Assembly (NCBI GenBank): GCA_027315345.1
Contig: DAHUYE010000041.1
Coordinates: 3,204 to 67,203, forward strand
Source: Actinomycetota bacterium
GTDB taxonomy: Bacteria; Actinomycetota; Acidimicrobiia; Acidimicrobiales; JAJPHE01
DNA: 64,000 nucleotides
Reading direction: 5' to 3'
Part shown: positions 48,946 to 58,507 of the stretch, one piece after another
How positions within the stretch are numbered: position 1 is the stretch's first letter
How the letters are laid out: each line of letters begins with the position of its first letter
The notes under the pieces: model-generated
Seen by the model: the letters and a program-made list of their open reading frames with translations, nothing else
What the model was told of the DNA's origin: nothing
Database searches by the model: none
Made by a program: the position numbers and the translations under genes

Positions 48946-50079
48946 GTGAAGGTGGGCATCCCGACAGAGACACAGCCCGGTGAGAACCGGGTGGCCATGG
49001 TGCCGGCCGTGGCCGGCTCCGTCATAGCCGCCGGTCACCAGCTGGTGGTCCAGTCGGGGGCGGGGACGGCGTCCGGATATCCCGATGCCGACTACCAGGC
49101 CGCCGGGGCCACCGTGGTCCCGTCGGGGGCCGAGGTCCTGGGCGGCTCGGACATGATCCTCAAGGTCCAGGTCCCCAGCATGGCCGAGGCGGGCGCCCTG
49201 CGAGAGGGCGCCGCCCTCATCGCCCTGTTCAGCCCGGGTCGGCGCCTGGACGAGGTCCGGGCCCTGGCCGGACGACGGGTCACGTCCTTCAGCCTGGAGC
49301 TGCTGCCCCGCACCACCCGGGCCCAGAGCATGGACGCCCTGTCCTCCCAGTCGACCGTGGCCGGCTACCGGGGCGTGCTCATAGCCGCCAACCGCCTGCC
49401 CCGCTTCCTGCCCATGTTCATGACCGCGGCCGGAACGGTGGCCCCGGCCAAGTTCCTGATCCTGGGGGCGGGAGTGGCCGGCCTACAGGCCATCTCCACG
49501 GCCAGGCGGCTGGGGGCGGTGGTGTCCGCCTACGACGTGCGGGCCGCCTCCAAGGGGGAGGTGGAGAGCCTGGGGGCCAAATTCGTGGATCTGCAGCTGG
49601 GCACGGCCGAGGGCGCCGGGGGTTACGCCGCCGAGCAGGCCGAGGAGACCCAGCGCCGCCAGCGGGAGGCCTTGGCCCCCTTCGTGGCCGCCTCCGACGT
49701 GGTCATCACCACCGCCCAGATCCCGGGCCGGCCCGCCCCGGTGCTGGTGACGGCCGAGATGATGAAAGGCATGCGGGCCGGTTCGGTGGTGGTGGACCTC
49801 GCCTCCGACACCGGCGGCAACGTCGAGGTGTCCCGGCCCGGGGAGGAGGTCGACCATGACGGGGTGGCCGTCATCGGCGTGTCCAACCCGGCCTCGGCGC
49901 TGCCGACCCACGCCAGCCAGCTCTACGCCCGCAACCTGGCCAACCTTCTGGCCCTCATGACCAAGGACGGAGCCTTCGTGCCCGACTACGAGGACGACAT
50001 CGTGGCCGCCACCGTGGTCACCCGAGATGGTGAGGTCGTGCACGGCCCGACCCGGGAGCTGGCCGGAGCGGCGTGGTGA
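48946..50079 (+). CDS. pntAA: NAD(P) transhydrogenase subunit alpha part 1
   Basis: VKVGIPTE..GENRVA N-terminus and Rossmann ILGAGVAGLQAI. 377 aa. Confidence 0.93.
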   Translation: MKVGIPTETQPGENRVAMVPAVAGSVIAAGHQLVVQSGAGTASGYPDADYQAAGATVVPSGAEVLGGSDMILKVQVPSMAEAGALREGAALIALFSPGRRLDEVRALAGRRVTSFSLELLPRTTRAQSMDALSSQSTVAGYRGVLIAANRLPRFLPMFMTAAGTVAPAKFLILGAGVAGLQAISTARRLGAVVSAYDVRAASKGEVESLGAKFVDLQLGTAEGAGGYAAEQAEETQRRQREALAPFVAASDVVITTAQIPGRPAPVLVTAEMMKGMRAGSVVVDLASDTGGNVEVSRPGEEVDHDGVAVIGVSNPASALPTHASQLYARNLANLLALMTKDGAFVPDYEDDIVAATVVTRDGEVVHGPTRELAGAAW

Positions 50080-50423
50080 CCGACTTCCTGACGCTTTTCA
50101 CCATCTTCGTGCTGTCGATCTTCCTCGGCATCGAGGTCATCTCCAAGGTGCCGAGCATTCTGCACACGCCCCTCATGTCCGGCACCAACGCCATCCACGG
50201 GATCATCCTGGTCGGGGCCATCGCCATCCTGGCCTCGGCCGACACCACCACCCTGCGGGTCATCGGCTTCCTGGCCGTGGTCCTGGCCACCCTCAACGTC
50301 ATCGGCGGCTTCGTGGTCACCGACCGGATGCTGGAGATGTTCAAGGGCCGGGGCCAGCGGGGCCGCCGGGACCAGGGGGCGGCGGCCTCGGCGGTCACCC
50401 CGCCGGCCGAGCCGGCCCAGTGA
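50073..50423 (+). CDS. pntAB: NAD(P) transhydrogenase subunit alpha part 2 (membrane)
   Basis: 116 aa, TM-rich. PLMSGTNAIHGIILVGA motif. Confidence 0.9.
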   Translation: MVTDFLTLFTIFVLSIFLGIEVISKVPSILHTPLMSGTNAIHGIILVGAIAILASADTTTLRVIGFLAVVLATLNVIGGFVVTDRMLEMFKGRGQRGRRDQGAAASAVTPPAEPAQ

Positions 50424-50436
50424 TCGGGACCCGACC

Positions 50437-51819
50437 GTGACCGCCGCCCTCCACTGGTCCTATCTGGCCGCCGCCGTCTGCTTCATCCTGGCCCTGCGCG
50501 GCCTGTCCGGGCCCCGCACCGCCCGGCCGGGCAACCTCATCGGCGCTTTCGGTATGGCCCTCGCTCTGGCCCTGACCCTGTCGGCCACCCACCTGTCCAA
50601 CCTGGTGCTCCTGATCGTGGCCATGGCCGTGGGCGTGGCCATCGGCGTGCCCGTGGCTCGCATGGTCCGCATGACGGCCATGCCCCAGATGGTGGCCGCC
50701 TTCAACGGCGTGGGGGGCGGGGCGGCCGCCCTGGTGGCCCTGGCCGACTACATCCGCAGCAGCAATGGGGTGGCCCTGTCCACCGGTAACCGGCTGGCCG
50801 TGATGCTGGGGGTGGTCATCGGCTGTATCTCCTTTGCCGGGTCGGTGGTGGCCTTCGCCAAGCTGCAGGAGCTGATCACCGGACGGCCCATCGTCTATCC
50901 GGGCCAGCAGGTGGTCAACGGTGTCATGGGGGCGGCCGCCCTGGCCCTCACCGTCACCGCCATCATCGGCCCCCACGTCGGACTGGTGGCCATCGTCGGG
51001 CTCATCGCCCTGGGCCTGGGCGTGGCCGTGGTCATGCCCATCGGCGGCGCCGACGTGCCGGTGGTCATCTCGCTGCTCAACTCCCTCACCGGCCTGGCCG
51101 TGGCCGCCTCCGGCTTCGTGCTGCACAACGTGGTGCTGATCGTGGCCGGCACCCTGGTCGGCGCGTCGGGAACCCTGCTGACCCGCATGATGAGCCAGGC
51201 CATGGGTCGCTCCCTGGCCAACATCATCTTCGGCGCCTTCGGATCGGTGTCGGCGGTGGCCGGGGCCGATGGAGCCGGCGGTGAGCGCACCGTCCGCTCC
51301 GGTACGGCCGATGACATCGGGACCCTCCTGGCCTACTCCAACCGGGTCATCGTGGTCCCCGGTTACGGCTTGGCCGTGGCCCAGGCCCAGCACACCATCC
51401 GGGAGCTGGCCGATCTGCTGGAGTCCCGTGGCGTGGAGGTCATCTACGCCATCCACCCGGTGGCCGGACGCATGCCCGGGCACATGAACGTGCTCCTGGC
51501 CGAGGCCGATGTCCCCTACGAGCAGTTGAAGGAGATGGACGAGGCCAACCCGCTCCTGCCCAGCACCGACGTGGCCCTGGTGGTAGGGGCCAACGATGTG
51601 GTCAACCCGGCCGCCCGGGACTCTCCGGGGAGTCCCATCTACGGGATGCCCATCATCAACGTGGACGAGGCGGGCAACATCATCTTCCTCAAGCGCTCGA
51701 TGCGGCCGGGCTTCGCCGGCATCGACAACGAGCTGCTCTACAACCCCAAGACGACCCTGCTCTTCGGGGATGCCAAGGACAGCCTCTCCAAGCTGGTGGC
51801 GGCGGTCAAGACGGCGTGA
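50437..51819 (+). CDS. pntB: NAD(P) transhydrogenase subunit beta
   Basis: 460 aa. Membrane domain plus dIII NADP(H) site VPGYGLAVAQAQH...IHPVAGRMPGHMNVLLAEA. Confidence 0.93.
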   Translation: MTAALHWSYLAAAVCFILALRGLSGPRTARPGNLIGAFGMALALALTLSATHLSNLVLLIVAMAVGVAIGVPVARMVRMTAMPQMVAAFNGVGGGAAALVALADYIRSSNGVALSTGNRLAVMLGVVIGCISFAGSVVAFAKLQELITGRPIVYPGQQVVNGVMGAAALALTVTAIIGPHVGLVAIVGLIALGLGVAVVMPIGGADVPVVISLLNSLTGLAVAASGFVLHNVVLIVAGTLVGASGTLLTRMMSQAMGRSLANIIFGAFGSVSAVAGADGAGGERTVRSGTADDIGTLLAYSNRVIVVPGYGLAVAQAQHTIRELADLLESRGVEVIYAIHPVAGRMPGHMNVLLAEADVPYEQLKEMDEANPLLPSTDVALVVGANDVVNPAARDSPGSPIYGMPIINVDEAGNIIFLKRSMRPGFAGIDNELLYNPKTTLLFGDAKDSLSKLVAAVKTA

Positions 51820-51856: not shown

Positions 51857-52918
51857 GTGACCACCACCGAGCCCTTCGTCATTTCCGGGACCGTCCAGAA
51901 GCAGGCCTGGGAAGACGGGATCATGCCCCCGGTCGAGAACCTGGGCGGCGGGCTGTGGTCCATCCCGGTCCCGATGCCGCAGAGCTCGCTGCGCTACGTC
52001 ATCGTCTACGCCCTGGAGCTGACCGATGGGGTGGCCATCATCGACGCCGGCTGGGACACCGACGCCGCCTGGGCCGCCCTCAACGCCGGGTTGGGCACCG
52101 CCGGCTACCAAATGGCCGACGTCAAGGCCGCCCTCATCACCCATATCCACCCGGACCACTATGGCCTGGCCGGCCGGGTCCGGGAGGCCTCCGGGGCCTG
52201 GATCGCCCTCCACCCGGCCGACGCCGCCGCCCTCTCCCAGCGCTACGTGGACATGGACGACCTGTTCGTCAAGATGCGGGCGCATCTGGCCGACTGCGGT
52301 GTGCCGCCCGAGACCACCGATGACATGCGGGGGGCGTCGATGGGGGTGCGGCCCTTCGTCAGCTTCGCCGAGCCCGACGTGCTCCTGGAGGACGGGGACA
52401 GTCCCGATACCCCGGGCTGGGACCTGCGGGCCATCTGGACCCCGGGCCATTCCCCGGGCCATCTCTGTTTCTACGCCCCGGAGCGCAAGCTGCTCATGTC
52501 CGGGGACCATGTGCTGCCCCGCATCACCCCCAACATCTCCTTCCACCCCCAGCAATCGGCCAGCCCTCTGGCCGATTTCATCGAGTCCCTGGCCAAGGTG
52601 GCCCTGTTGGAGACCGATGAGGTCCTGCCCGCCCACGAGTACCGCTTCCGGGGCCTGGCCGCCCGGGTGACCCAGCTGCGGGACCACCACGAGGAGCGCT
52701 TCGGGGAGATCCTGGCCACGGTGTCGGCCCGGCCCGGCTGCACGGCCTGGGAGGTGGCCACCACCCTGACCTGGAGTCGGCCCTGGGACCAGATCGAGTC
52801 CTGGATGCGCCGGGCCGCCCTGGGCGAGACGCTGGCCCACATGATGGTGCTCGAGACCCGGGGACAGTTGCGCCGGGAGGGCCGCTCCCCGGAGCGGTGG
52901 GAGACGACGGGGCGCTAG
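51857..52918 (+). CDS. MBL-fold metallo-hydrolase
   Basis: ITHIHPDHYG (HxHxDH), TPGHSPGH, SGDHV. 353 aa. Confidence 0.85.
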   Translation: MTTTEPFVISGTVQKQAWEDGIMPPVENLGGGLWSIPVPMPQSSLRYVIVYALELTDGVAIIDAGWDTDAAWAALNAGLGTAGYQMADVKAALITHIHPDHYGLAGRVREASGAWIALHPADAAALSQRYVDMDDLFVKMRAHLADCGVPPETTDDMRGASMGVRPFVSFAEPDVLLEDGDSPDTPGWDLRAIWTPGHSPGHLCFYAPERKLLMSGDHVLPRITPNISFHPQQSASPLADFIESLAKVALLETDEVLPAHEYRFRGLAARVTQLRDHHEERFGEILATVSARPGCTAWEVATTLTWSRPWDQIESWMRRAALGETLAHMMVLETRGQLRREGRSPERWETTGR

Positions 52919-52974: not shown

Positions 52975-53448
52975 TCAGGCGTCGCCCAGCGGGCGGCCGA
53001 TGGCAACTTCCCGCATGGTGGTGAGGGCGTAGACGGCCATTTCGCCGTCCTGGAGGAAGCGGGTGGTGACGAAGCGGGTCCGGGCCCGGGCCTTCTCCAG
53101 CCGGCTCTCGATTTCGAAGCGGGGACCGAGGATGGGCTCGAAGTAGTCGATGCGCATGTTGGTGGTGGCCAGCCAGTTGCGGGGGCCGTTCGTCCACTCC
53201 TGACGCCGGCCGGCCCTGACCGTCTGCAGGGCGACCATGTCCACGTAGGTGGGCGTGAAGCCCCCGAAGAGCTGGCCCCGGGGGTTTCGGACCTGGGTCG
53301 GCAGGTGGCAGGACACCCGGAGCAGGCCCGGGCCCTCCTCCAGCAGATCCCACTGGTGGGCCTCCAGGAAGTCTCCGGCCGGGTGGCCCCGCCCCATGAG
53401 GCGGCCGGGCTCGGGTGCGGTCCAGGCCCGGACCGAGCCGGGGTCCAT
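52975..53448 (-). CDS. PaaI/hotdog-fold thioesterase
   Basis: Core NPRGQLFGGFTPTYVDMVA. Start taken at ATG 53448 (MDPGSV), because the longer track ORF runs into the repeat region. Confidence 0.6.
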   Translation of the reverse strand: MDPGSVRAWTAPEPGRLMGRGHPAGDFLEAHQWDLLEEGPGLLRVSCHLPTQVRNPRGQLFGGFTPTYVDMVALQTVRAGRRQEWTNGPRNWLATTNMRIDYFEPILGPRFEIESRLEKARARTRFVTTRFLQDGEMAVYALTTMREVAIGRPLGDA

Positions 53449-53497
53449 GGGGGCAGCGGGCGGTGGGCGGCTGGGGTCGGACACGGCGGCATCCTGC

Positions 53498-53523
53498 CAC
53501 CCGGGTGCCCGCCGCCAATCAAC
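53498..53523 (-). repeat. 26-nt direct repeat (partial copy of the 5' edge of element copy B)
   Basis: CACCCGGGTGCCCGCCGCCAATCAAC is identical to 53612-53637, 114 nt away. Confidence 0.9.
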
Positions 53524-53564
53524 AGGGAGGAGGATGGGAACGCACAGACGCAACCATGGAGGGC

Positions 53565-53632: not shown

Positions 53633-54988
53633 TCAACGCGGCAGGGGCTGGGGCGGGGGAGGCCCGACGTAGCGGGCGCTGGGGCGGATGATGCGGTTGT
53701 CCCGGGCCTGTTCGAGGATGTGGGCGGACCAGCCGACCACCCGGGCGGCGGCGAAGGTGGGCGTGAACAGCGTCCGGTCCAGCCCGGCCAGTTCCATCAC
53801 GACTCCGGCGTAGTACTCGACGTTGGTGTGCAGTTCCTGATCGGGCTTGAGCTCGGCCAGGGTGGAGAGGATGGTGGCTTCGACCTGCTGGGCGAAGTCC
53901 ACCAGCGGGCCGCCCATCTCCCTGGCGATGTCCCGGAGCATGGCCGAGCGGGGGTCATAGGTCTTGTAGACGGGATGGCCGAAGCCCATGATCCGCTCGC
54001 CCCGGGCGATGGCGTCGCGCACCCACGCCTCGGTGCGCTCGGGCGTGCCGATGGCGTCGAGGGTGTCGAGGGCCCGGCTGGGGGCGCCGCCGTGCAGCGG
54101 CCCGGACAGCGAGCCGAGGGCGGCCACGACCGCCGAGCCCAGGTCGGCCCCGGTGGAGGTGACCACCCGGGCGGTGAAGGTGGAGGCGTTGAAGCCGTGC
54201 TCGATGGTCGAGGTCATGTAGGCCTCCACCGCCCGCAGGGCCATGGGCTCGGGCTCGGCCCCGTGGAGCATGTAGAGGTAGTTGGCCACGTGGCCGAGGT
54301 CCTCCCTCGGCTCGAGGGGGGCCATCCCGTGGGCCAGCCGGTGCAGGGCGGCCACCAGGGTCGGCACCGCCGCCCCCAGCCGCAGCCCGTCGGCCCGGAG
54401 CCGCTCCGGGCTCACGTCCAGGCTGGGGCGGAAGCCCTCGGCCAGGGCCAGCAGGGACACGGCCGTCCGGAGCGCGTCCAGCGAGCCGGCTCCCCCCGGC
54501 GCCGCCAGCCCGGCCCGGGCGATGGCCGGCAGCACCTCGGCCACCGGCTCGGGCAGGCGGCGGAGGGGGGCCAACTCGGCCCGGAAAGTGGCCGCCTCAT
54601 CGGCGTCGGGGAGGTGGCCGTCGACCAATAGGGCCCAGGCGTCCTCGAAGCCGTAGTGGGTGCAGACGTCCACGGCCGAGTACTGGCGGTAGTGGTAGAA
54701 GCCCTCCAGGCCCCGTACCTCCCCGATCTCGGTCTCGGCCACGATGACACCCTTGAGCCCCCGCGGCACATCGGTGAAGGCACCCTCCACCGGGCGGAGC
54801 TGGGCCACCCCCATCAGGTCCCGCTCGGTCAGTATCCCCACCGGTCGATTGGCCTCGGCCACGACCACCGAACCCACGCCGGCCTCGGCCATGCGCCGGG
54901 CGGCAACCTCCAGGGTCTCCGCCGGGCCGGCGGTCACCGCCGGGCTGGTCATCAGGTCGGCCACCGTCCGCACTGTCGCTGTCATCAC
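53633..54988 (-). CDS. Citrate synthase family enzyme with an N-terminal CBS module
   Basis: aa 1-70: CBS-like VADLMTSPAVTAGPAETLEVAARRMAEAGVGSVVVAEANRPVGILTERDL. The rest is a citrate synthase fold with IEHGFNASTF, GFGHPVYKTYDPRS and NVEYYAGVV. Confidence 0.85.
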   Translation of the reverse strand: MMTATVRTVADLMTSPAVTAGPAETLEVAARRMAEAGVGSVVVAEANRPVGILTERDLMGVAQLRPVEGAFTDVPRGLKGVIVAETEIGEVRGLEGFYHYRQYSAVDVCTHYGFEDAWALLVDGHLPDADEAATFRAELAPLRRLPEPVAEVLPAIARAGLAAPGGAGSLDALRTAVSLLALAEGFRPSLDVSPERLRADGLRLGAAVPTLVAALHRLAHGMAPLEPREDLGHVANYLYMLHGAEPEPMALRAVEAYMTSTIEHGFNASTFTARVVTSTGADLGSAVVAALGSLSGPLHGGAPSRALDTLDAIGTPERTEAWVRDAIARGERIMGFGHPVYKTYDPRSAMLRDIAREMGGPLVDFAQQVEATILSTLAELKPDQELHTNVEYYAGVVMELAGLDRTLFTPTFAAARVVGWSAHILEQARDNRIIRPSARYVGPPPPQPLPR

Positions 54989-55043
54989 TGGCTCCTCTGA
55001 GCGTCGTCGGTTCTCTTGGTGGCTCTGATCCTCACCTTTCGGA

Positions 55044-55092
55044 CTTATATTGTCAATATTGATTGAATCAACATTGATTTAGGAATCAAGTC
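55044..55092. promoter_or_regulatory. AT-rich array of overlapping palindromes between the divergent citrate-synthase paralogues (candidate operator/promoters)
   Basis: TCAATATTGA (55053-62), TTGATTGAATCAA (55059-71) and TTGATT-tagg-AATCAA (55074-89). It is one of the most AT-rich stretches seen in the window. Confidence 0.55.
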
Positions 55093-55107
55093 AGGTAGGG
55101 TGGGGAC

Positions 55108-56364
55108 ATGTCAGGGGTGGAAGGTGGGTCGGGTGTGGAGTCCTGGCTCAGTGCTTCGGAGGCAGCCGCCCGTCTGGGGGTCCAGCCCCAGACGCTCTAC
55201 GCCTACGTCAGCCGGGGCCTGTTGAGCAGCCACCCGGTCCCGGGCCGGCGGGCCAGTCGCTACTCCCGCTCCGAGGTGGAGCGCCTGGCGGCCCGCACCC
55301 GATCCGGAGGCCGGCCGGAGCGCTCCGGGGGGCTGGAGATCGTGGTCGATACCAACCTGACCCTGCTGGACCCGGCCGGCCACCTCTACTACCGGGGCTG
55401 GGACGTGACCGAGGCGGCCCGGACGGCCAGCTACGAGCGGGTGGCGGAGTGGCTGTGGTCCGGCCAGGACGAGGGTGAGCCGGCGGCGTGGAACTCTCGC
55501 CCGGAGGCGCTGGGCGCGGTCAGCCAGGCCGTCGCCGGCCTCGCTGGCGGCGCGACGTTGGTGGACAGGATGCGGATCGGCACTGCCGTGGCGGCTACCA
55601 CCGATCCCATGCGCCACGACCTGCGGCCCCCGGCCGTGGCGGCCCTGGGCCGTGCCCTGGTGTCCACATTGGTTGACAGCCTGCCTCCTGCCGGTGACCA
55701 AGAGCCGGGCACGGGCCACGGCCCCGGGGTGGCGGCCCGCCTATGGCCGGCGTTGTCCCCCAGGGATCCGAGTCCGGCCGAGTTGGGGGTCCTGAACGCC
55801 GCCCTGGTCCTGCTGGCCGACCATGAACTGGCCGCCTCCACACTGGGAGCCCGGGTGGCCGCCAGCACCTGGGCCGACCCCTACCTGGTGGTTCAGGCCG
55901 GTCTGGGGGTGCTGGGCGGTCCGCTCCACGGTGGGGCCACCGAGGCGGTGCGGGACTTCCTCGGCCCGGTGGCCGAGGGCCGGGTCGGGCCGGCCCAGGC
56001 CGTGGGAGAGCAGCTGCGGACCGGCCGGATCCCCGGCCTGGGCCACGCCGTGTACGAGGGCCCGGACCCCCGGGCCGCCGCCCTGCTCAGGGCTCTCGAG
56101 TCGGCCGAGCCGCCCGAGGCGGCCTGGGCCGGGGTCTGCGGAGTGCTGGGTCTCCTGGAGGAGCGGGATCTCCCCCTGCCCAACATCGACATGGCCATGG
56201 GCGCCATGGCCGTGTGCCTGGGGCTGGCGCCGGGGTCGGGAGAGGCCATTTTCGCCCTGGCCCGGATGGCCGGCTGGTTGGCCCACGCCATGGAGGAGTA
56301 CCAGCACCGGCTGCGGTTCCGGCCTCGGGCCGTCTACCTGGGCCCGCCGCCCCGGCACGCTTAA
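55108..56364 (+). CDS. Citrate-synthase-like protein with an N-terminal MerR/excisionase-type HTH
   Basis: aa 10-60: WLSASEAAARLGVQPQTLYAYVSRGLL (HTH_17-like). Then a citrate synthase fold with LADHELAAST, GLGHAVYEGPDPRA and PNIDMAMG. Confidence 0.8.
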   Translation: MSGVEGGSGVESWLSASEAAARLGVQPQTLYAYVSRGLLSSHPVPGRRASRYSRSEVERLAARTRSGGRPERSGGLEIVVDTNLTLLDPAGHLYYRGWDVTEAARTASYERVAEWLWSGQDEGEPAAWNSRPEALGAVSQAVAGLAGGATLVDRMRIGTAVAATTDPMRHDLRPPAVAALGRALVSTLVDSLPPAGDQEPGTGHGPGVAARLWPALSPRDPSPAELGVLNAALVLLADHELAASTLGARVAASTWADPYLVVQAGLGVLGGPLHGGATEAVRDFLGPVAEGRVGPAQAVGEQLRTGRIPGLGHAVYEGPDPRAAALLRALESAEPPEAAWAGVCGVLGLLEERDLPLPNIDMAMGAMAVCLGLAPGSGEAIFALARMAGWLAHAMEEYQHRLRFRPRAVYLGPPPRHA

Positions 56365-56548: not shown

Positions 56549-58507
56549 TTGCCCCTTCTCCCGATGCCACCGACCCCTCCTGCGCCCGCCCCCGGCCCTG
56601 ATCGCTGCCGGTTCGGAGGCGCCGCGGCGATAGCCGTGGAGGACGGCCGGGCGGAGGCCTCCCGGGCGGAACGGGAGGTGGGGGTCCTGGCCGTTGCCAT
56701 CTGCCTCCTCCTGGTGGTCGCTCTGGTAGCCGTACTCGGTCTCAGGGGCCTGGGTGGGGCCGCGGGCTCCCGGGCGGCCGAACCCCGGATCGGAGTCGCC
56801 CGGGCCGGCGGTGCCGGCGCCGGCCATGGGTCCGCCCCGGTGAAGCCCCCCGCCCACACCCGGGCCGGGTTCCTCCCGCCGTCCCGCCACGCCGCCACCA
56901 ACAGCCCGGGCCGCTCCGTCCGGGCCGCCGGGAAGGCCGGGAAAGCCGGGAGTGCCCGACGGGGTCAGGCCCGCTCCGCCTCGGCCGCCGCTCATGTCAG
57001 CCCCCTGTGGGGACCCGGCTACCGGCTGGCCGCCGCCGACGGGGGGGTGTTCAGCTTCGGAAATGCCCGATTCCTGGGCAGCATGGGATCCGAAGCTCTG
57101 GCGGCTCCGGTGGTGGCCCTGGCCACCACTCCCGACGGCCTGGGCTACTGGGAGGCCGCCGCCGACGGAGGGGTCTTCGCCTTCGGGGACGCCCGCTACA
57201 TGGGCGGAATGGGCGGCCACCCGATCTCGGCTCCGGTGGTGGCGATGGCGGCCGTCCCCAACGGATCGGGGTACTGGTTGGCCGCCGCCGACGGTGGGAT
57301 ATTCACCTACGGAACTGCGCCTTTCCTGGGCTCGCTGGCCAGTAAGGAGCTGCATGCCCCGGTTGTGGGCATGGCCGCCACCCCGGATGGCCGGGGCTAC
57401 TGGCTGGTGGCCGCCGACGGCGGGGTCTTCGCATTCGGGGACGCCCGCTACTACGGGGGCATGGCCGGCTACGGGATAGCCGCACCCATCGTGGGTATGG
57501 CCTCCACCCCGGACGGGACCGGCTACTGGCTGGTAGCCGCCGACGGGGGTGTCTTCACCTACGGGACGGCCCGCTACTACGGGGGCATGGGAGGCCATCT
57601 CCTGGCGGCGCCGGTGGTGGGCATGGCCGCCGAGCCGGACGGCAGCGGCTACTGGCTGGCCGCCGCCGATGGCGGCATCTTCACCTACGGGGCGGCCGGC
57701 TTCTGGGGCGGCCCGGGCGGCTACAGCCTGTATCGGCCGGTCACGGCCGTGGCCGCCGGCCTGAATCCCGCCTACCGGGCTGACCCTCAGGTTGAGGTGG
57801 ATGGCCGCTACGGCTTCGATGTGTCCTGGCCCCAGTGTGACGACCGGGGCCTGCCGAGTGGGCATGCCTTTGCGGTGCTGGGGATCACCGACGGGAAGGC
57901 CTTCACCCGCAACCCCTGCCTGGGCTCCCAGTGGGCTTGGGCCACAGCCGCCGCCGGGGCCGGGGGTCTCTACGTCAACCTGAATGAGCCCGCGGCCGGT
58001 TCCCGGTCCGACTTCGGCCCGGCCGGGCGCTGTAAGCGAGGGGATCTGGCCTGCCCCGCCTACAACTACGGCTCCAACGCCGTCGATCATGCCCTCTCCT
58101 ATGCCCGCTCCCAGGGCGCCACCGCCCCCATGATCTGGCTGGACGTGGAGACGGGGAACTCCTGGACTCCCTACGGGGACGTCAACGCCCTGGTCGTCAA
58201 GGGGGCCATCGATCAGCTCCACCGCCGGGGGCTCGGGGCCGGGATTTACTCCACCCCCCTGCAGTGGGACCAGATCACCGGGGGGGCTGATTTCGGTGTG
58301 CCGGTCTGGGTGGCGGGCTCCCCGGACCTCAACTCGGCCCCTTCCTATTGTTCCGACGGTTTCAACGGGGGCCAGGTGTGGATGGTCCAGACCATGCTCG
58401 ATTACGACGTCAACTACCTCTGCCGGCAGGCCTACGCCGCCAGCGCCTTCGGGGTCCACCCCCTCCCCGTCGCCCCGGCCTTCCCCCTCGATCGGCCCCG
58501 GCCCTAG
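56549..58507 (+). CDS. Membrane-anchored protein: six ~47-aa beta-propeller-type repeats + C-terminal glycoside-hydrolase-like (GH25/DUF1906-like) domain
   Basis: TM VGVLAVAICLLLVVALVAVLGL. Repeats follow the consensus PVVGMAxTPDGxGYWLxAADGGVFxFGDARYYGGMGG. C-terminus has GFDVSWPQC...NPCLGSQWAW...IWLDVE. The start is uncertain (TTG 56549, ATG 56564). Confidence 0.75.
   Translation: MPLLPMPPTPPAPAPGPDRCRFGGAAAIAVEDGRAEASRAEREVGVLAVAICLLLVVALVAVLGLRGLGGAAGSRAAEPRIGVARAGGAGAGHGSAPVKPPAHTRAGFLPPSRHAATNSPGRSVRAAGKAGKAGSARRGQARSASAAAHVSPLWGPGYRLAAADGGVFSFGNARFLGSMGSEALAAPVVALATTPDGLGYWEAAADGGVFAFGDARYMGGMGGHPISAPVVAMAAVPNGSGYWLAAADGGIFTYGTAPFLGSLASKELHAPVVGMAATPDGRGYWLVAADGGVFAFGDARYYGGMAGYGIAAPIVGMASTPDGTGYWLVAADGGVFTYGTARYYGGMGGHLLAAPVVGMAAEPDGSGYWLAAADGGIFTYGAAGFWGGPGGYSLYRPVTAVAAGLNPAYRADPQVEVDGRYGFDVSWPQCDDRGLPSGHAFAVLGITDGKAFTRNPCLGSQWAWATAAAGAGGLYVNLNEPAAGSRSDFGPAGRCKRGDLACPAYNYGSNAVDHALSYARSQGATAPMIWLDVETGNSWTPYGDVNALVVKGAIDQLHRRGLGAGIYSTPLQWDQITGGADFGVPVWVAGSPDLNSAPSYCSDGFNGGQVWMVQTMLDYDVNYLCRQAYAASAFGVHPLPVAPAFPLDRPRP

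What the first reader, a model, noticed from the sequence alone, without database searches (positions are those of the whole stretch)
53633..56364. Divergent pair of citrate-synthase paralogues carrying different N-terminal sensor/regulator modules (CBS versus HTH)
Seen in sequence. The minus-strand gene encodes a ~60-aa CBS-type module fused to a complete citrate synthase fold (IEHGFNASTF, GFGHPVYKTYDPRS, NVEYYAG). The plus-strand gene encodes a MerR/excisionase-like helix-turn-helix (ASEAAARLGVQPQTLYAYVSRGLL) fused to a second citrate-synthase fold (LADHELAAST, GLGHAVYEGPDPRA, PNIDMAMG). Both keep the two catalytic His positions and an acidic residue at the Asp position, so neither is obviously dead. 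Inference: the HTH fusion could be a one-component regulator that uses a citrate-synthase fold as a ligand sensor (oxaloacetate, acyl-CoA or citrate). It could alternatively be a moonlighting enzyme that autoregulates the divergent CBS-gated enzyme. CBS modules normally act in pairs, so a single copy suggests dimer-dependent nucleotide sensing. I am not aware of a functional description of either architecture.
Basis: partly seen in the sequence, partly recalled or inferred. Interest (0 to 1): 0.6.

Follow-up and report, generated by a model that had tools for sequence, protein, structure and literature searches.

The report
Citrate synthase fused to DNA-binding regulator
Two back-to-back citrate synthase genes, one fused to a DNA-binding domain, flank a DNA palindrome conserved across several bacterial phyla, which suggests that a copy of a central metabolic enzyme has become the switch controlling its neighbour, an idea I found no published test of.

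Summary
Window 53633-54985 (-) encodes one CBS motif plus a CitA-type citrate synthase (CS1). Window 55108-56364 (+) encodes a MerR/HTH_17 winged helix plus a second citrate synthase fold (HTH-CS). All catalytic and oxaloacetate-binding residues are kept.

- **The single CBS is a remnant.** Relatives carry a CBS pair. The window lost 186 bp (62 codons) in frame at a short repeat, and a sister genome has a larger, independent deletion.
- **The pair is a conserved module.** 61 of 80 species genomes with HTH-CS have CS1 divergent upstream. This includes Streptomycetaceae loci whose spacer matches S. coelicolor SCO5831/SCO5832.
- **The spacer holds an AT-rich operator.** Its core is RTCAAYRTTGAY. 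It is about 290-fold enriched upstream of HTH-CS and is nearly absent upstream of citrate synthases that lack an adjacent HTH-CS (10/11 against 2/56). It also sits upstream of unlinked targets. In Streptosporangiales-type genomes it precedes a non-homologous homocitrate-synthase-like gene that takes the place of CS1.

Best explanation: HTH-CS is an enzyme-derived, autoregulated transcription factor, comparable to PutA or BirA. It controls a second acyl-CoA:oxoacid synthase in response to ligands in its citrate synthase site. DNA binding, ligand and sign are inferred. I found no published description.

The parts
53633..54985 (-). CS1: a CitA-type (small, type I) citrate synthase with an N-terminal single CBS motif. 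The ORF extends to a GTG at 54988, but the ATG at 54985 is the likely start.
   Evidence: P0121 is 100% identical and 450 aa. A GAGGAG site lies 6 nt upstream of the ATG.
53678..54760 (-). Citrate synthase domain of CS1 (residues 77-437). Both His and the Arg residues are conserved, and Glu occupies the catalytic acid position.
   Evidence: Pfam E 4e-107. Alignment to 2c6x. Invariant columns in A5.
54809..54964 (-). Single CBS motif. It is a chimera of CBS1 with the last helix of CBS2.
   Evidence: Pfam CBS E 1.6e-12. AlphaFold2 beta-alpha-beta-beta-alpha with 10-residue block means of pLDDT 60-86. Protein alignment A2.
54815..54823 (-). Junction of the 186-bp (62-codon) in-frame deletion, at the codons for Arg-Asp-Leu. 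These codons occur in both CBS motifs of the relatives.
   Evidence: DNA alignment A3 against L082/L083, which carry the full CBS pair. Protein alignment A2.
54986..55107 (.). Divergent intergenic region. GC falls to 32-34% at 55025-55099 against about 72% in the surrounding genome.
55052..55063 (.). Operator copy 1, GTCAATATTGAT (core RTCAAYRTTGAY).
55067..55078 (.). Operator copy 2, ATCAACATTGAT, centred 15 bp from copy 1. Together the two copies form a 21-bp dyad, AATATTGATTGAATCAACATT, at 55055-55075.
   Evidence: The block is conserved in close relatives.
55085..55089 (.). Additional ATCAA half-site, 19 nt before the HTH-CS start codon.
   Evidence: Recurrent downstream ATCAA in other loci.
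55028..55056 (-). Candidate CS1 promoter read by eye: -35 TTGACA (55056-55051), a 17-nt spacer, and -10 GAGGAT (55033-55028). The -35 is the left half of operator copy 1.
   Evidence: Direct reading. GAGGATC is invariant in four close relatives. The consensus scan found nothing, so this is inference.
55108..56364 (+). HTH-CS: a MerR/HTH_17-type winged helix fused to a citrate synthase fold.
55144..55305 (+). Winged helix-turn-helix (residues 13-66). The recognition helix TLYAYVSRG is nearly invariant across the family.
   Evidence: Pfam. AlphaFold2 topology. Invariant columns in A1 and A4. Weak match to the SoxR DNA-binding domain.
55342..56328 (+). Citrate synthase domain of HTH-CS (residues 79-407). 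H239, H274, H313, R322, D361, R386 and R405/R407 are invariant in 99 sequences.
   Evidence: Foldseek TM about 0.7-0.77 to PrpC and citrate synthase structures.

Best explanation
The locus is a conserved two-gene regulatory module.

HTH-CS is a citrate synthase paralogue that acquired an N-terminal MerR-type winged helix. Citrate synthases are obligate dimers, so it would present two DNA-binding domains. These would bind the AT-rich dyad operator (core RTCAAYRTTGAY, two copies at 55052-55078) in the 122-bp spacer. The operator overlaps the candidate -35 of the CS1 promoter and ends 19 nt before the HTH-CS start codon, so occupancy would control both genes (autoregulation plus control of CS1).

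I propose that binding is gated by what sits in the citrate synthase active site (oxaloacetate, acetyl-CoA or citrate) through the open/closed domain movement of that fold. The most likely logic is repression relieved by substrate.

The catalytic triad and all oxaloacetate-binding residues are invariant family-wide. HTH-CS is therefore probably still an enzyme, that is, a trigger enzyme like PutA or BirA, rather than a dead sensor.

CS1 is the regulated output: a CitA-type secondary citrate synthase. Its ancestral Bateman (CBS-pair) module, probably an adenine-nucleotide sensor, has been cut to one motif here by a deletion.

Shown: architectures, conservation, gene linkage, the operator and its association with HTH-CS and with target genes.
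Inferred: that HTH-CS is the protein that binds the operator, the ligand, the sign of regulation, and enzymatic activity.
For: - **Domains and folds:**
- **Family size:** the N-terminal 130 aa match 1021 representatives of 50%-identity clusters at E<=1e-10.
- **Linkage:** 61 of 80 genomes have CS1 divergent immediately upstream, one more is cut by a contig end, and one is co-directional.
- **Operator:**
  - Core positions are 86-98% conserved across Actinomycetota, Binatia, Thermoanaerobaculia, Anaerolineae and Dormibacterota.
  - AAYNTTGAT occurs at 4.07 per kb in the 310 bp upstream of HTH-CS against 0.014 per kb elsewhere in the same loci. It is present in 74 of 80 loci.
  - In the 64-kb window, all 3 near-matches fall inside this spacer, against 0.52 expected.
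- **Control:** among metagenomic small citrate synthases, the motif is upstream in 10 of 11 with a divergent HTH-CS and in 2 of 56 without (Fisher p = 2.8e-9).
- **The operator follows the regulon, not the position:**
  - 13 of 18 loci without CS1 carry a conserved 412-aa HMGL-like/HCS_D2 synthase, and 10 of these are divergent from HTH-CS with the same operator.
  - Where that gene or CS1 is not adjacent (L032, L064, L037, L042), it has its own operator about 35 bp upstream.
- **Co-conservation:** the recognition helix TLYAYVSRG is near-invariant alongside the invariant TTGAT half-site.
- **Catalytic residues** are invariant in 99 sequences.
- **A natural tandem fusion:** a 792-aa HTH-CS-HTH-CS protein exists (P0316), which fits a dimeric working unit.
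Against: - No experiment links HTH-CS to this DNA.
- The left half of the palindrome coincides with a plausible -35 box, so part of the conservation could reflect promoter function.
- The spacing between the core palindrome and the further ATCAA half-sites varies (3-10 bp), which is unusual for a rigid dimer.
- A 12-bp palindrome has half-sites closer together than in classical MerR operators. The classical MerR coiled-coil dimerisation helix is also absent.
- In S. coelicolor a different regulator, MtrA, binds the homologous spacer in EMSA (PMC12323332), so other factors act there.
- Two positions that the characterised citrate synthases I compared conserve are changed family-wide in HTH-CS: Asn of HExNAST becomes Ala, and Lys of GHxVYK becomes variable. 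Activity or substrate may therefore differ.
- The HTH-only sequence search of the PDB was not significant (SoxR, E = 0.32).
Confidence: 0.6

Rival explanations
1. HTH-CS is a pure ligand sensor. The citrate synthase fold only binds a metabolite (oxaloacetate, citrate or an acyl-CoA), no longer turns over substrate, and serves as the effector domain of a one-component regulator.
For: - The citrate synthase domain is much more divergent than CS1 (Pfam 178 against 359 bits).
- There are family-wide substitutions at normally conserved positions: HExNAST becomes DHELAAST, and GHxVYK becomes GHxVYx.
- A conventional citrate synthase sits next door in most genomes.
Against: The catalytic base Asp361, His274 and His313 are invariant in 99 sequences at 51-85% identity to the window protein. 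That is hard to explain by ligand binding alone.
Confidence: 0.25
2. The conserved AT-rich block is not an HTH-CS site. It would be a pair of back-to-back -35 promoter boxes and/or the site of an unlinked regulator, and the HTH of HTH-CS would do something else.
For: - TTGACA/TTGATY halves resemble -35 hexamers, and the left half fits a -35/-10 pair for CS1.
- MtrA binds the S. coelicolor spacer (PMC12323332).
Against: - The motif is almost absent from the other roughly 928 kb of the same loci (0.014 per kb). Of the 13 hits outside the HTH-CS upstream windows, 8 lie directly upstream of CS1 or the HMGL-like target gene where that gene is not adjacent, and 5 look like chance.
- It persists as a palindrome where no divergent gene exists (L042, L069, L064).
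- It is absent upstream of 54 of 56 citrate synthase genes without an adjacent HTH-CS.
- The MtrA site predicted in the paper is a different sequence, seen beside the palindrome in L015, L023 and L044.
Confidence: 0.12
3. The single CBS motif of the window CS1 is functional. Two copies, one from each subunit of the citrate synthase dimer, pair into a Bateman-like nucleotide sensor.
For: - The deletion leaves a complete beta-alpha-beta-beta-alpha motif with the conserved G-I-L-T-E-R-D ribose-phosphate-type motif.
- It is in frame.
- AlphaFold2 folds it with moderate confidence.
Against: - It is derived from a CBS pair by microhomology deletion.
- The closest sister genome lost nearly the whole module independently, and several relatives lack it. 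This points to relaxed selection in this lineage.
- The linker to the enzyme is low confidence.
Confidence: 0.25
4. The two genes are simply isozymes from a duplication with no regulatory relationship, or they form CS1/HTH-CS heterodimers.
For: - Both have complete citrate synthase folds.
- The citrate synthase active site is built across the dimer interface (own knowledge).
Against: - The partner can be a non-homologous HMGL-type enzyme or be unlinked while the operator is retained. Heterodimerisation therefore cannot be the general logic.
- The conserved operator argues for regulation.
Confidence: 0.05

Closest known systems
PutA (proline utilisation A) and BirA: trigger enzymes with a fused DNA-binding domain (own knowledge; the concept appears in PMC3901225 and PMC7083601)
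   Same: An enzyme carries an N-terminal DNA-binding domain. Operators lie in the spacer of a divergent gene pair (putA-putP). Catalytic residues are retained. Enzyme ligands are expected to gate DNA binding.
   Different: The enzyme fold (citrate synthase) and the DNA-binding fold (MerR/HTH_17 rather than ribbon-helix-helix or BirA winged helix) both differ. The regulated neighbour is a paralogue or an analogue of the regulator's own enzyme domain. Nothing has been tested experimentally.
MerR-family regulators (SoxR, HspR)
   Same: The winged-helix sequence signature matches (Pfam MerR_1 above cutoff; best PDB sequence match is the SoxR DNA-binding domain; NCBIfam HspR E 0.0026). The dyad operators contain TTGA/TCAA half-sites, as in the SoxR box and the HspR HAIR element (own knowledge).
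   Different: There is no coiled-coil dimerisation helix and no small effector domain; dimerisation would come from the citrate synthase fold. The operator core is a 12-bp palindrome, not a dyad inside a 19-20-bp promoter spacer.
M. tuberculosis CitA (Rv0889c; PDB 6wgy, 8glb) and B. subtilis CitA (PDB 2c6x)
   Same: CS1 belongs to the same small citrate synthase subfamily (NF009005 above cutoff; 2c6x E 5.5e-87, M. tuberculosis CitA E about 1e-64). It shares Glu at the catalytic acid position with 2c6x.
   Different: CS1 relatives in Acidimicrobiia carry an N-terminal CBS pair, and the solved enzymes have none. From memory, B. subtilis citA is divergent from a LysR-type regulator, citR. Here the divergent regulator is itself a citrate synthase paralogue.
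S. coelicolor SCO5831 (citA3) / SCO5832 (citA4)
   Same: This is a divergent pair of putative citrate synthases. The published intergenic MtrA site TTGACTTAACTGTCCA matches TTGACTTGACTGTCCA next to the palindrome in the Streptomycetaceae loci L015, L023 and L044 (PMC12323332), so it is most likely the same module.
   Different: There is no CBS on the Streptomyces partner (L035). The papers treat both genes as putative citrate synthases and do not mention the HTH or the palindrome. I did not read the S. coelicolor sequences themselves.
Caulobacter crescentus CitA (PMC7083601)
   Same: A citrate synthase paralogue with a regulatory role that does not depend on catalysis.
   Different: It has no DNA-binding domain, acts on the cell cycle through other means, and belongs to a different lineage.
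Bateman-module enzymes (IMP dehydrogenase, CBS-pyrophosphatase)
   Same: An N-terminal or inserted CBS pair sits on a metabolic enzyme and is presumed to sense adenine nucleotides. Weak NCBIfam hits to GuaB1 and CBS-PPase CBS regions support the resemblance.
   Different: I found no description of a fusion to citrate synthase. In this window the pair is reduced to one motif.

Membership tests
Citrate synthase superfamily (PF00285), small dimeric type | Full-length citrate synthase fold | tested here: met
   Pfam covers model positions 1-357 (CS1) and 7-357 (HTH-CS). AlphaFold2 pLDDT is 83 and 90. Foldseek TM is about 0.7-0.77 to citrate synthase and PrpC structures.
Citrate synthase superfamily (PF00285), small dimeric type | Catalytic His/His/acid triad and oxaloacetate-binding His and Arg residues | tested here: met
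   HTH-CS: H239, H274, H313, R322, D361, R386 and R405/R407 are invariant in 99 sequences. CS1: the equivalents are invariant, with Glu at the acid position as in 2c6x.
Citrate synthase superfamily (PF00285), small dimeric type | Citrate or 2-methylcitrate synthase activity | not testable with these tools
   HTH-CS has family-wide changes: HExNAST becomes DHELAAST, and the Lys of GHxVYK is not conserved. The effect is unknown.
MerR / HTH_17 winged-helix DNA-binding domain | Sequence profile above the curated threshold | tested here: met
   HTH_17 scores 36.1 bits (cutoff 27) and MerR_1 scores 26.9 bits (cutoff 21.6).
MerR / HTH_17 winged-helix DNA-binding domain | beta-alpha-alpha-beta-beta-alpha topology | tested here: met
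   AlphaFold2 elements: E13-15, H16-23, H27-35, E41-43, E50-53, H54-66. The 10-residue blocks covering residues 11-60 average pLDDT 84-95.
MerR family transcription factors (full-length) | C-terminal antiparallel coiled-coil dimerisation helix followed by an effector domain | tested here: not met
   A low-confidence linker (residues 67-80) runs straight into the citrate synthase fold.
MerR family transcription factors (full-length) | Dyad operator inside an over-long (19-20 bp) -35/-10 spacer | tested here: inconclusive
   The consensus scan found no promoter. The hand-read CS1 promoter has a 17-nt spacer, with the operator over the -35.
Trigger enzyme / enzyme-fused autoregulator (PutA, BirA type) | DNA-binding domain and a catalytically equipped enzyme domain in one chain | tested here: met
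Trigger enzyme / enzyme-fused autoregulator (PutA, BirA type) | Specific operator in its own promoter region and at target genes | tested here: met
   In silico only.
Trigger enzyme / enzyme-fused autoregulator (PutA, BirA type) | Ligand- or catalysis-dependent DNA binding | not testable with these tools
   Needs EMSA or footprinting with oxaloacetate, acetyl-CoA, citrate and CoA.
Bateman module (CBS pair) | Two tandem CBS motifs | tested here: not met
   The window has one stretch (48 bits). The relative P0122 has two (94 bits). The deletion is mapped.
Bateman module (CBS pair) | Adenosyl-ligand binding that changes enzyme activity | not testable with these tools
   The G-h-h-T-x-x-D motif is retained (GILTERD).

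The most novel reading that the evidence does not exclude
HTH-CS is a flux-sensing trigger enzyme. It would be a still-active citrate synthase whose open/closed catalytic cycle directly gates a MerR-type DNA-binding domain. That would set the expression of a second, interchangeable acetyl-CoA:oxoacid condensing enzyme (CitA-type citrate synthase, with or without a Bateman module, or an unrelated HMGL-type synthase). This would hold in more than 600 species across at least five phyla, including Streptomyces.
Probability: 0.3. Interest if true: 0.8.

Novelty: new variant of a known kind. Interest (0 to 1): 0.62.

Why it matters
Control of entry into the TCA cycle in Actinomycetota is only partly understood, and secondary citrate synthases such as M. 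tuberculosis CitA or S. coelicolor citA3/citA4 have no clear role.

If the reading is correct, it would add a large, unstudied family to the short list of trigger enzymes: about 1000 clusters at 50% identity and more than 600 species. It would be a widespread citrate synthase paralogue that reads the oxaloacetate or acetyl-CoA state directly and turns it into transcription.

It would also give a defined operator, RTCAAYRTTGAY, for regulon prediction, and a compact metabolite-responsive switch for engineering Streptomyces.

The replacement of the target by a non-homologous synthase at the same operator hints that the regulated function is what is conserved, not the protein. The specificity of that synthase is unknown, so this remains a lead.

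All of this is directly testable with EMSA, an enzyme assay and one knockout.

Tried and rejected
- **Literature:** I searched for HTH-citrate synthase, CBS-citrate synthase, SCO5831/5832, trigger enzyme, excisionase, and the operator sequences as text. No description of either architecture or of the motif turned up. The sequence-string hits were primers and CpG oligonucleotides.
- **Promoter and terminator scan of the spacer:** nothing found. The promoter proposal is therefore by eye only.
- **PDB sequence search with the HTH alone:** only SoxR at E 0.32. I use it as a lead, not as evidence.
- **Foldseek against afdb50:** the library was unavailable.
- **Conservation of flanking genes:** the 192-aa weak 4HBT-like ORF, the metallo-beta-lactamase-fold gene and the 652-aa repeat protein are not conserved with the pair across loci. 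I rejected the idea of a larger operon.
- **Specificity of the HMGL-like partner:** NCBIfam and PDB place it in the isopropylmalate/homocitrate synthase family, below every equivalog cutoff. A paper search on Re-citrate synthase did not settle it. I do not call it a Re-citrate synthase.
- **A frame error:** my first BLAST with the HMGL gene used a wrong frame. It was redone correctly.
- **The deletion as an assembly artefact:** I considered this unlikely. The two CBS motifs share only a 10-bp imperfect repeat, and a sister genome has a different deletion.


Full report
**1. What is in the sequence**

The two ORFs are real.

The minus-strand gene is 53633-54988, with a likely start at the ATG at 54985.
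- It has a GAGGAG ribosome-binding site 6 nt upstream.
- The identical NCBI protein P0121 is 450 aa.
- It has one Pfam CBS stretch (residues 9-60, E 1.6e-12) and a full citrate synthase domain (E 4e-107).
- It passes the NCBIfam NF009005 citrate synthase cutoff (338.7 against 332 bits).
- Its best solved relatives are B. subtilis CitA (2c6x, E 5.5e-87) and, further down, M. tuberculosis CitA (E about 1e-64).

The plus-strand gene is 55108-56364.
- It has HTH_17 and MerR_1 above their cutoffs at residues 13-63, plus a more divergent citrate synthase domain (E 3e-52).
- AlphaFold2 on a 99-sequence alignment gives mean pLDDT 90.4.
- The model shows a beta-alpha-alpha-beta-beta-alpha winged helix at 13-66, a floppy linker at 67-80 and a citrate synthase fold.
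- That fold superposes on PrpC and citrate synthase structures at TM about 0.7-0.77.

The organism is an Acidimicrobiales MAG (source names), with GC about 70%. The two citrate synthase domains are 31% identical.

**2. Catalytic equipment**

In 99 HTH-CS sequences at 51-85% identity to the window protein, these residues are invariant: H239, H274, H313, R322, D361, R386, R405 and R407. From my own knowledge of the pig enzyme, they correspond to H238, H274, H320, R329, D375, R401 and R421.

CS1 keeps the same set but has Glu at the acid position (NVEYYAG), as does 2c6x.

Two family-wide departures in HTH-CS deserve note. The Asn of HExNAST is Ala (DHELAAST), and the Lys of GHxVYK is not conserved. 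I cannot say what these do.

**3. The single CBS is a remnant**

- Most homologues of CS1 are 505-530 aa and carry CBS. P0122 has two CBS stretches totalling 94 bits.
- The protein alignment shows the window protein joining GILTE of CBS1 directly to RDLMGVAQ at the end of CBS2, with 62 residues missing.
- The DNA alignment with L082 and L083 (94% identical protein, full pair) places the 186-bp deletion between the imperfect repeats GCGGGACCTG and GCGAGACCTC.
- The syntenic sister genome L084 has a different, larger deletion that removes almost the whole module.
- What is left is a complete single motif that AlphaFold2 folds with moderate confidence.
- The pattern is one of loss in this small clade, not of a designed single-CBS sensor.

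**4. The pair is a conserved module**

- Taxa within Actinomycetota include Acidimicrobiia, Streptomyces, Actinomadura, Nonomuraea, Solirubrobacter, Rubrobacteraceae, Actinomycetospora and Nocardia.
- MAGs labelled Binatia, Thermoanaerobaculia, Gemmatimonadota, Dormibacterota and Anaerolineae were also returned.
- ORF calling plus BLAST showed a CS1-type gene divergent immediately upstream in 61 of 80 loci. One more is cut by a contig end and one is co-directional.
- 21 partners carry a CBS pair by BLAST. L077 adds one more by Pfam.
- Flanking genes are not conserved with the pair.
- The N-terminal 130 aa of HTH-CS match 1021 representatives of 50%-identity clusters at E<=1e-10.

**5. The operator**

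The spacer of the window drops to 32-34% GC. It contains GTCAATATTGAT (55052-55063), ATCAACATTGAT (55067-55078) and a further ATCAA (55085-55089).

The same element appears in nearly every locus.
- A position matrix gives the core RTCAAYRTTGAY, with 86-98% conservation at the defined positions.
- Further ATCAA or full copies follow at variable spacing.
- AAYNTTGAT occurs at 4.07 per kb in the 310 bp upstream of HTH-CS against 0.014 per kb in the other 928 kb of the same loci, and in 74 of 80 loci.
- In the 64-kb window, the only three near-matches are in this spacer, against 0.52 expected and no shuffle reaching three.

As a control I fetched 80 metagenomic loci of small citrate synthases. The motif is upstream of the citrate synthase in 10 of 11 loci with a divergent HTH-CS and in 2 of 56 without (Fisher p = 2.8e-9).

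**6. The operator follows the regulon**

- Of the 18 loci without a CS1 neighbour, 13 carry a highly conserved 412-aa gene (77-93% identical among genera).
- That gene has HMGL-like and HCS_D2 domains and belongs to the isopropylmalate/homocitrate synthase family. It falls below every equivalog cutoff.
- In 10 of them this gene sits divergent to HTH-CS with the same operator.
- In L032 and L064 it lies kilobases away and has its own operator copy about 35 bp upstream, while HTH-CS keeps another.
- In L037 (CS1 1.3 kb away) and L042 (co-directional), CS1 likewise has its own copy.
- Of the 13 motif hits outside the HTH-CS upstream windows, 8 are of this kind.

So the element marks HTH-CS and an acyl-CoA:oxoacid condensing enzyme whatever their arrangement. 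The condensing enzyme can be replaced by a non-homologous one.

**7. Mechanism proposed**

The recognition helix TLYAYVSRG is nearly invariant, which matches an invariant TTGAT half-site. The motif upstream of the regulator gene itself is the usual signature of autoregulation.

Citrate synthases are dimers (own knowledge), which would supply two HTH domains for a dyad. A natural 792-aa tandem HTH-CS-HTH-CS protein (P0316) fits that picture.

By eye, the left operator half is the -35 (TTGACA) of a CS1 promoter with a 17-nt spacer and a GAGGAT -10 that is invariant in four close relatives. The operator block ends 19 nt before the HTH-CS start.

I therefore favour a repressor of both promoters that is released, or re-positioned, by ligands of the citrate synthase site. 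The invariant catalytic base argues that the protein is still an enzyme.

Every step after "conserved operator associated with HTH-CS" is inference.

**8. Rivals**

- **Back-to-back -35 boxes or another regulator.** The specificity figures argue against this, as does the persistence of the palindrome where there is no divergent gene. MtrA does bind the S. coelicolor spacer, at a different sequence (PMC12323332).
- **A catalytically silent sensor.** This remains quite possible.
- **A functional one-CBS sensor.** This cannot be excluded, but the deletions make it less likely.

**9. Comparison with what is known**

- The logic resembles PutA and BirA.
- The DNA-binding domain is MerR-type but lacks the MerR coiled coil, so this is not a MerR-family regulator in the full sense.
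- CS1 is a CitA-type enzyme.
- S. coelicolor SCO5831/SCO5832 (citA3/citA4) is most likely the same module. Its published intergenic MtrA site matches sequences beside the palindrome in the Streptomycetaceae loci L015, L023 and L044.
- The papers I read describe both genes only as putative citrate synthases.
- I found no paper on the HTH fusion, the CBS fusion or the motif.
- The library does not cover most subscription journals, so a prior description cannot be excluded.

**10. Verdict**

The regulatory idea gains strong comparative support; the CBS idea does not.

The kind of system, an enzyme fused to a DNA-binding domain, is known. This family, its operator and its interchangeable target appear to be undescribed.

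Noticed in passing
L009 4677-5915 (-); also L010, L012, L014, L016, L028, L030, L053, L074, L076; L032 11230-12480; L064 2885-4141: In Streptosporangiales, Micromonosporales and related genomes, the partner of HTH-CS is not a citrate synthase. It is a very conserved 412-aa HMGL-like/HCS_D2 enzyme of the isopropylmalate/homocitrate synthase family, which from memory also contains Re-citrate synthase. It has the same operator upstream, even when unlinked. Its substrate is unknown.
   Followed up: partly
window 56549-58507 (+), repeats at 57010-57757: A 652-aa ORF directly downstream of HTH-CS contains about five copies of a 126-bp (42-aa) tandem repeat (GYWL.AADGGVF.FG.A.F.G). It has no Pfam match. 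A related repeat protein occurs in L079, and an unannotated 536-aa gene occupies the same position in the sister genome L084 (I did not compare the sequences).
   Followed up: partly
window 52975-53553 (-): A 192-aa ORF 80 bp downstream of CS1 on the same strand has a sub-threshold hit to the 4HBT hotdog thioesterase family (E 0.0013, 19.4 against 20.6 bits). ORFs of 162-169 aa with no Pfam annotation occupy the same position in L082 and L084, but homologues were not found next to the pair in the 80 genome loci.
   Followed up: partly
window 48946-51819 (+): A three-gene proton-translocating NAD(P) transhydrogenase cluster (AlaDh_PNT_N/C, then a small membrane subunit, then PNTB by synteny with L084) lies upstream. 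A metallo-beta-lactamase-fold gene follows at 51857-52918.
   Followed up: no
P0316 (792 aa): A protein with two HTH and two citrate synthase stretches in one chain, that is, a tandem HTH-CS-HTH-CS fusion that would form a covalent dimer.
   Followed up: partly
L015, L023, L044 (Streptomycetaceae spacers): Beside the palindrome there is a second conserved element, TTGACTTGACTGTCCATG. It corresponds to the MtrA site reported between S. coelicolor SCO5831 and SCO5832, so at least two regulators may act on this spacer in Streptomyces.
   Followed up: partly
L091 and L144 (metagenome loci): Two small citrate synthase genes have the operator motif upstream without a detectable adjacent HTH-CS. They may be unlinked regulon members or truncated contigs.
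   Followed up: no
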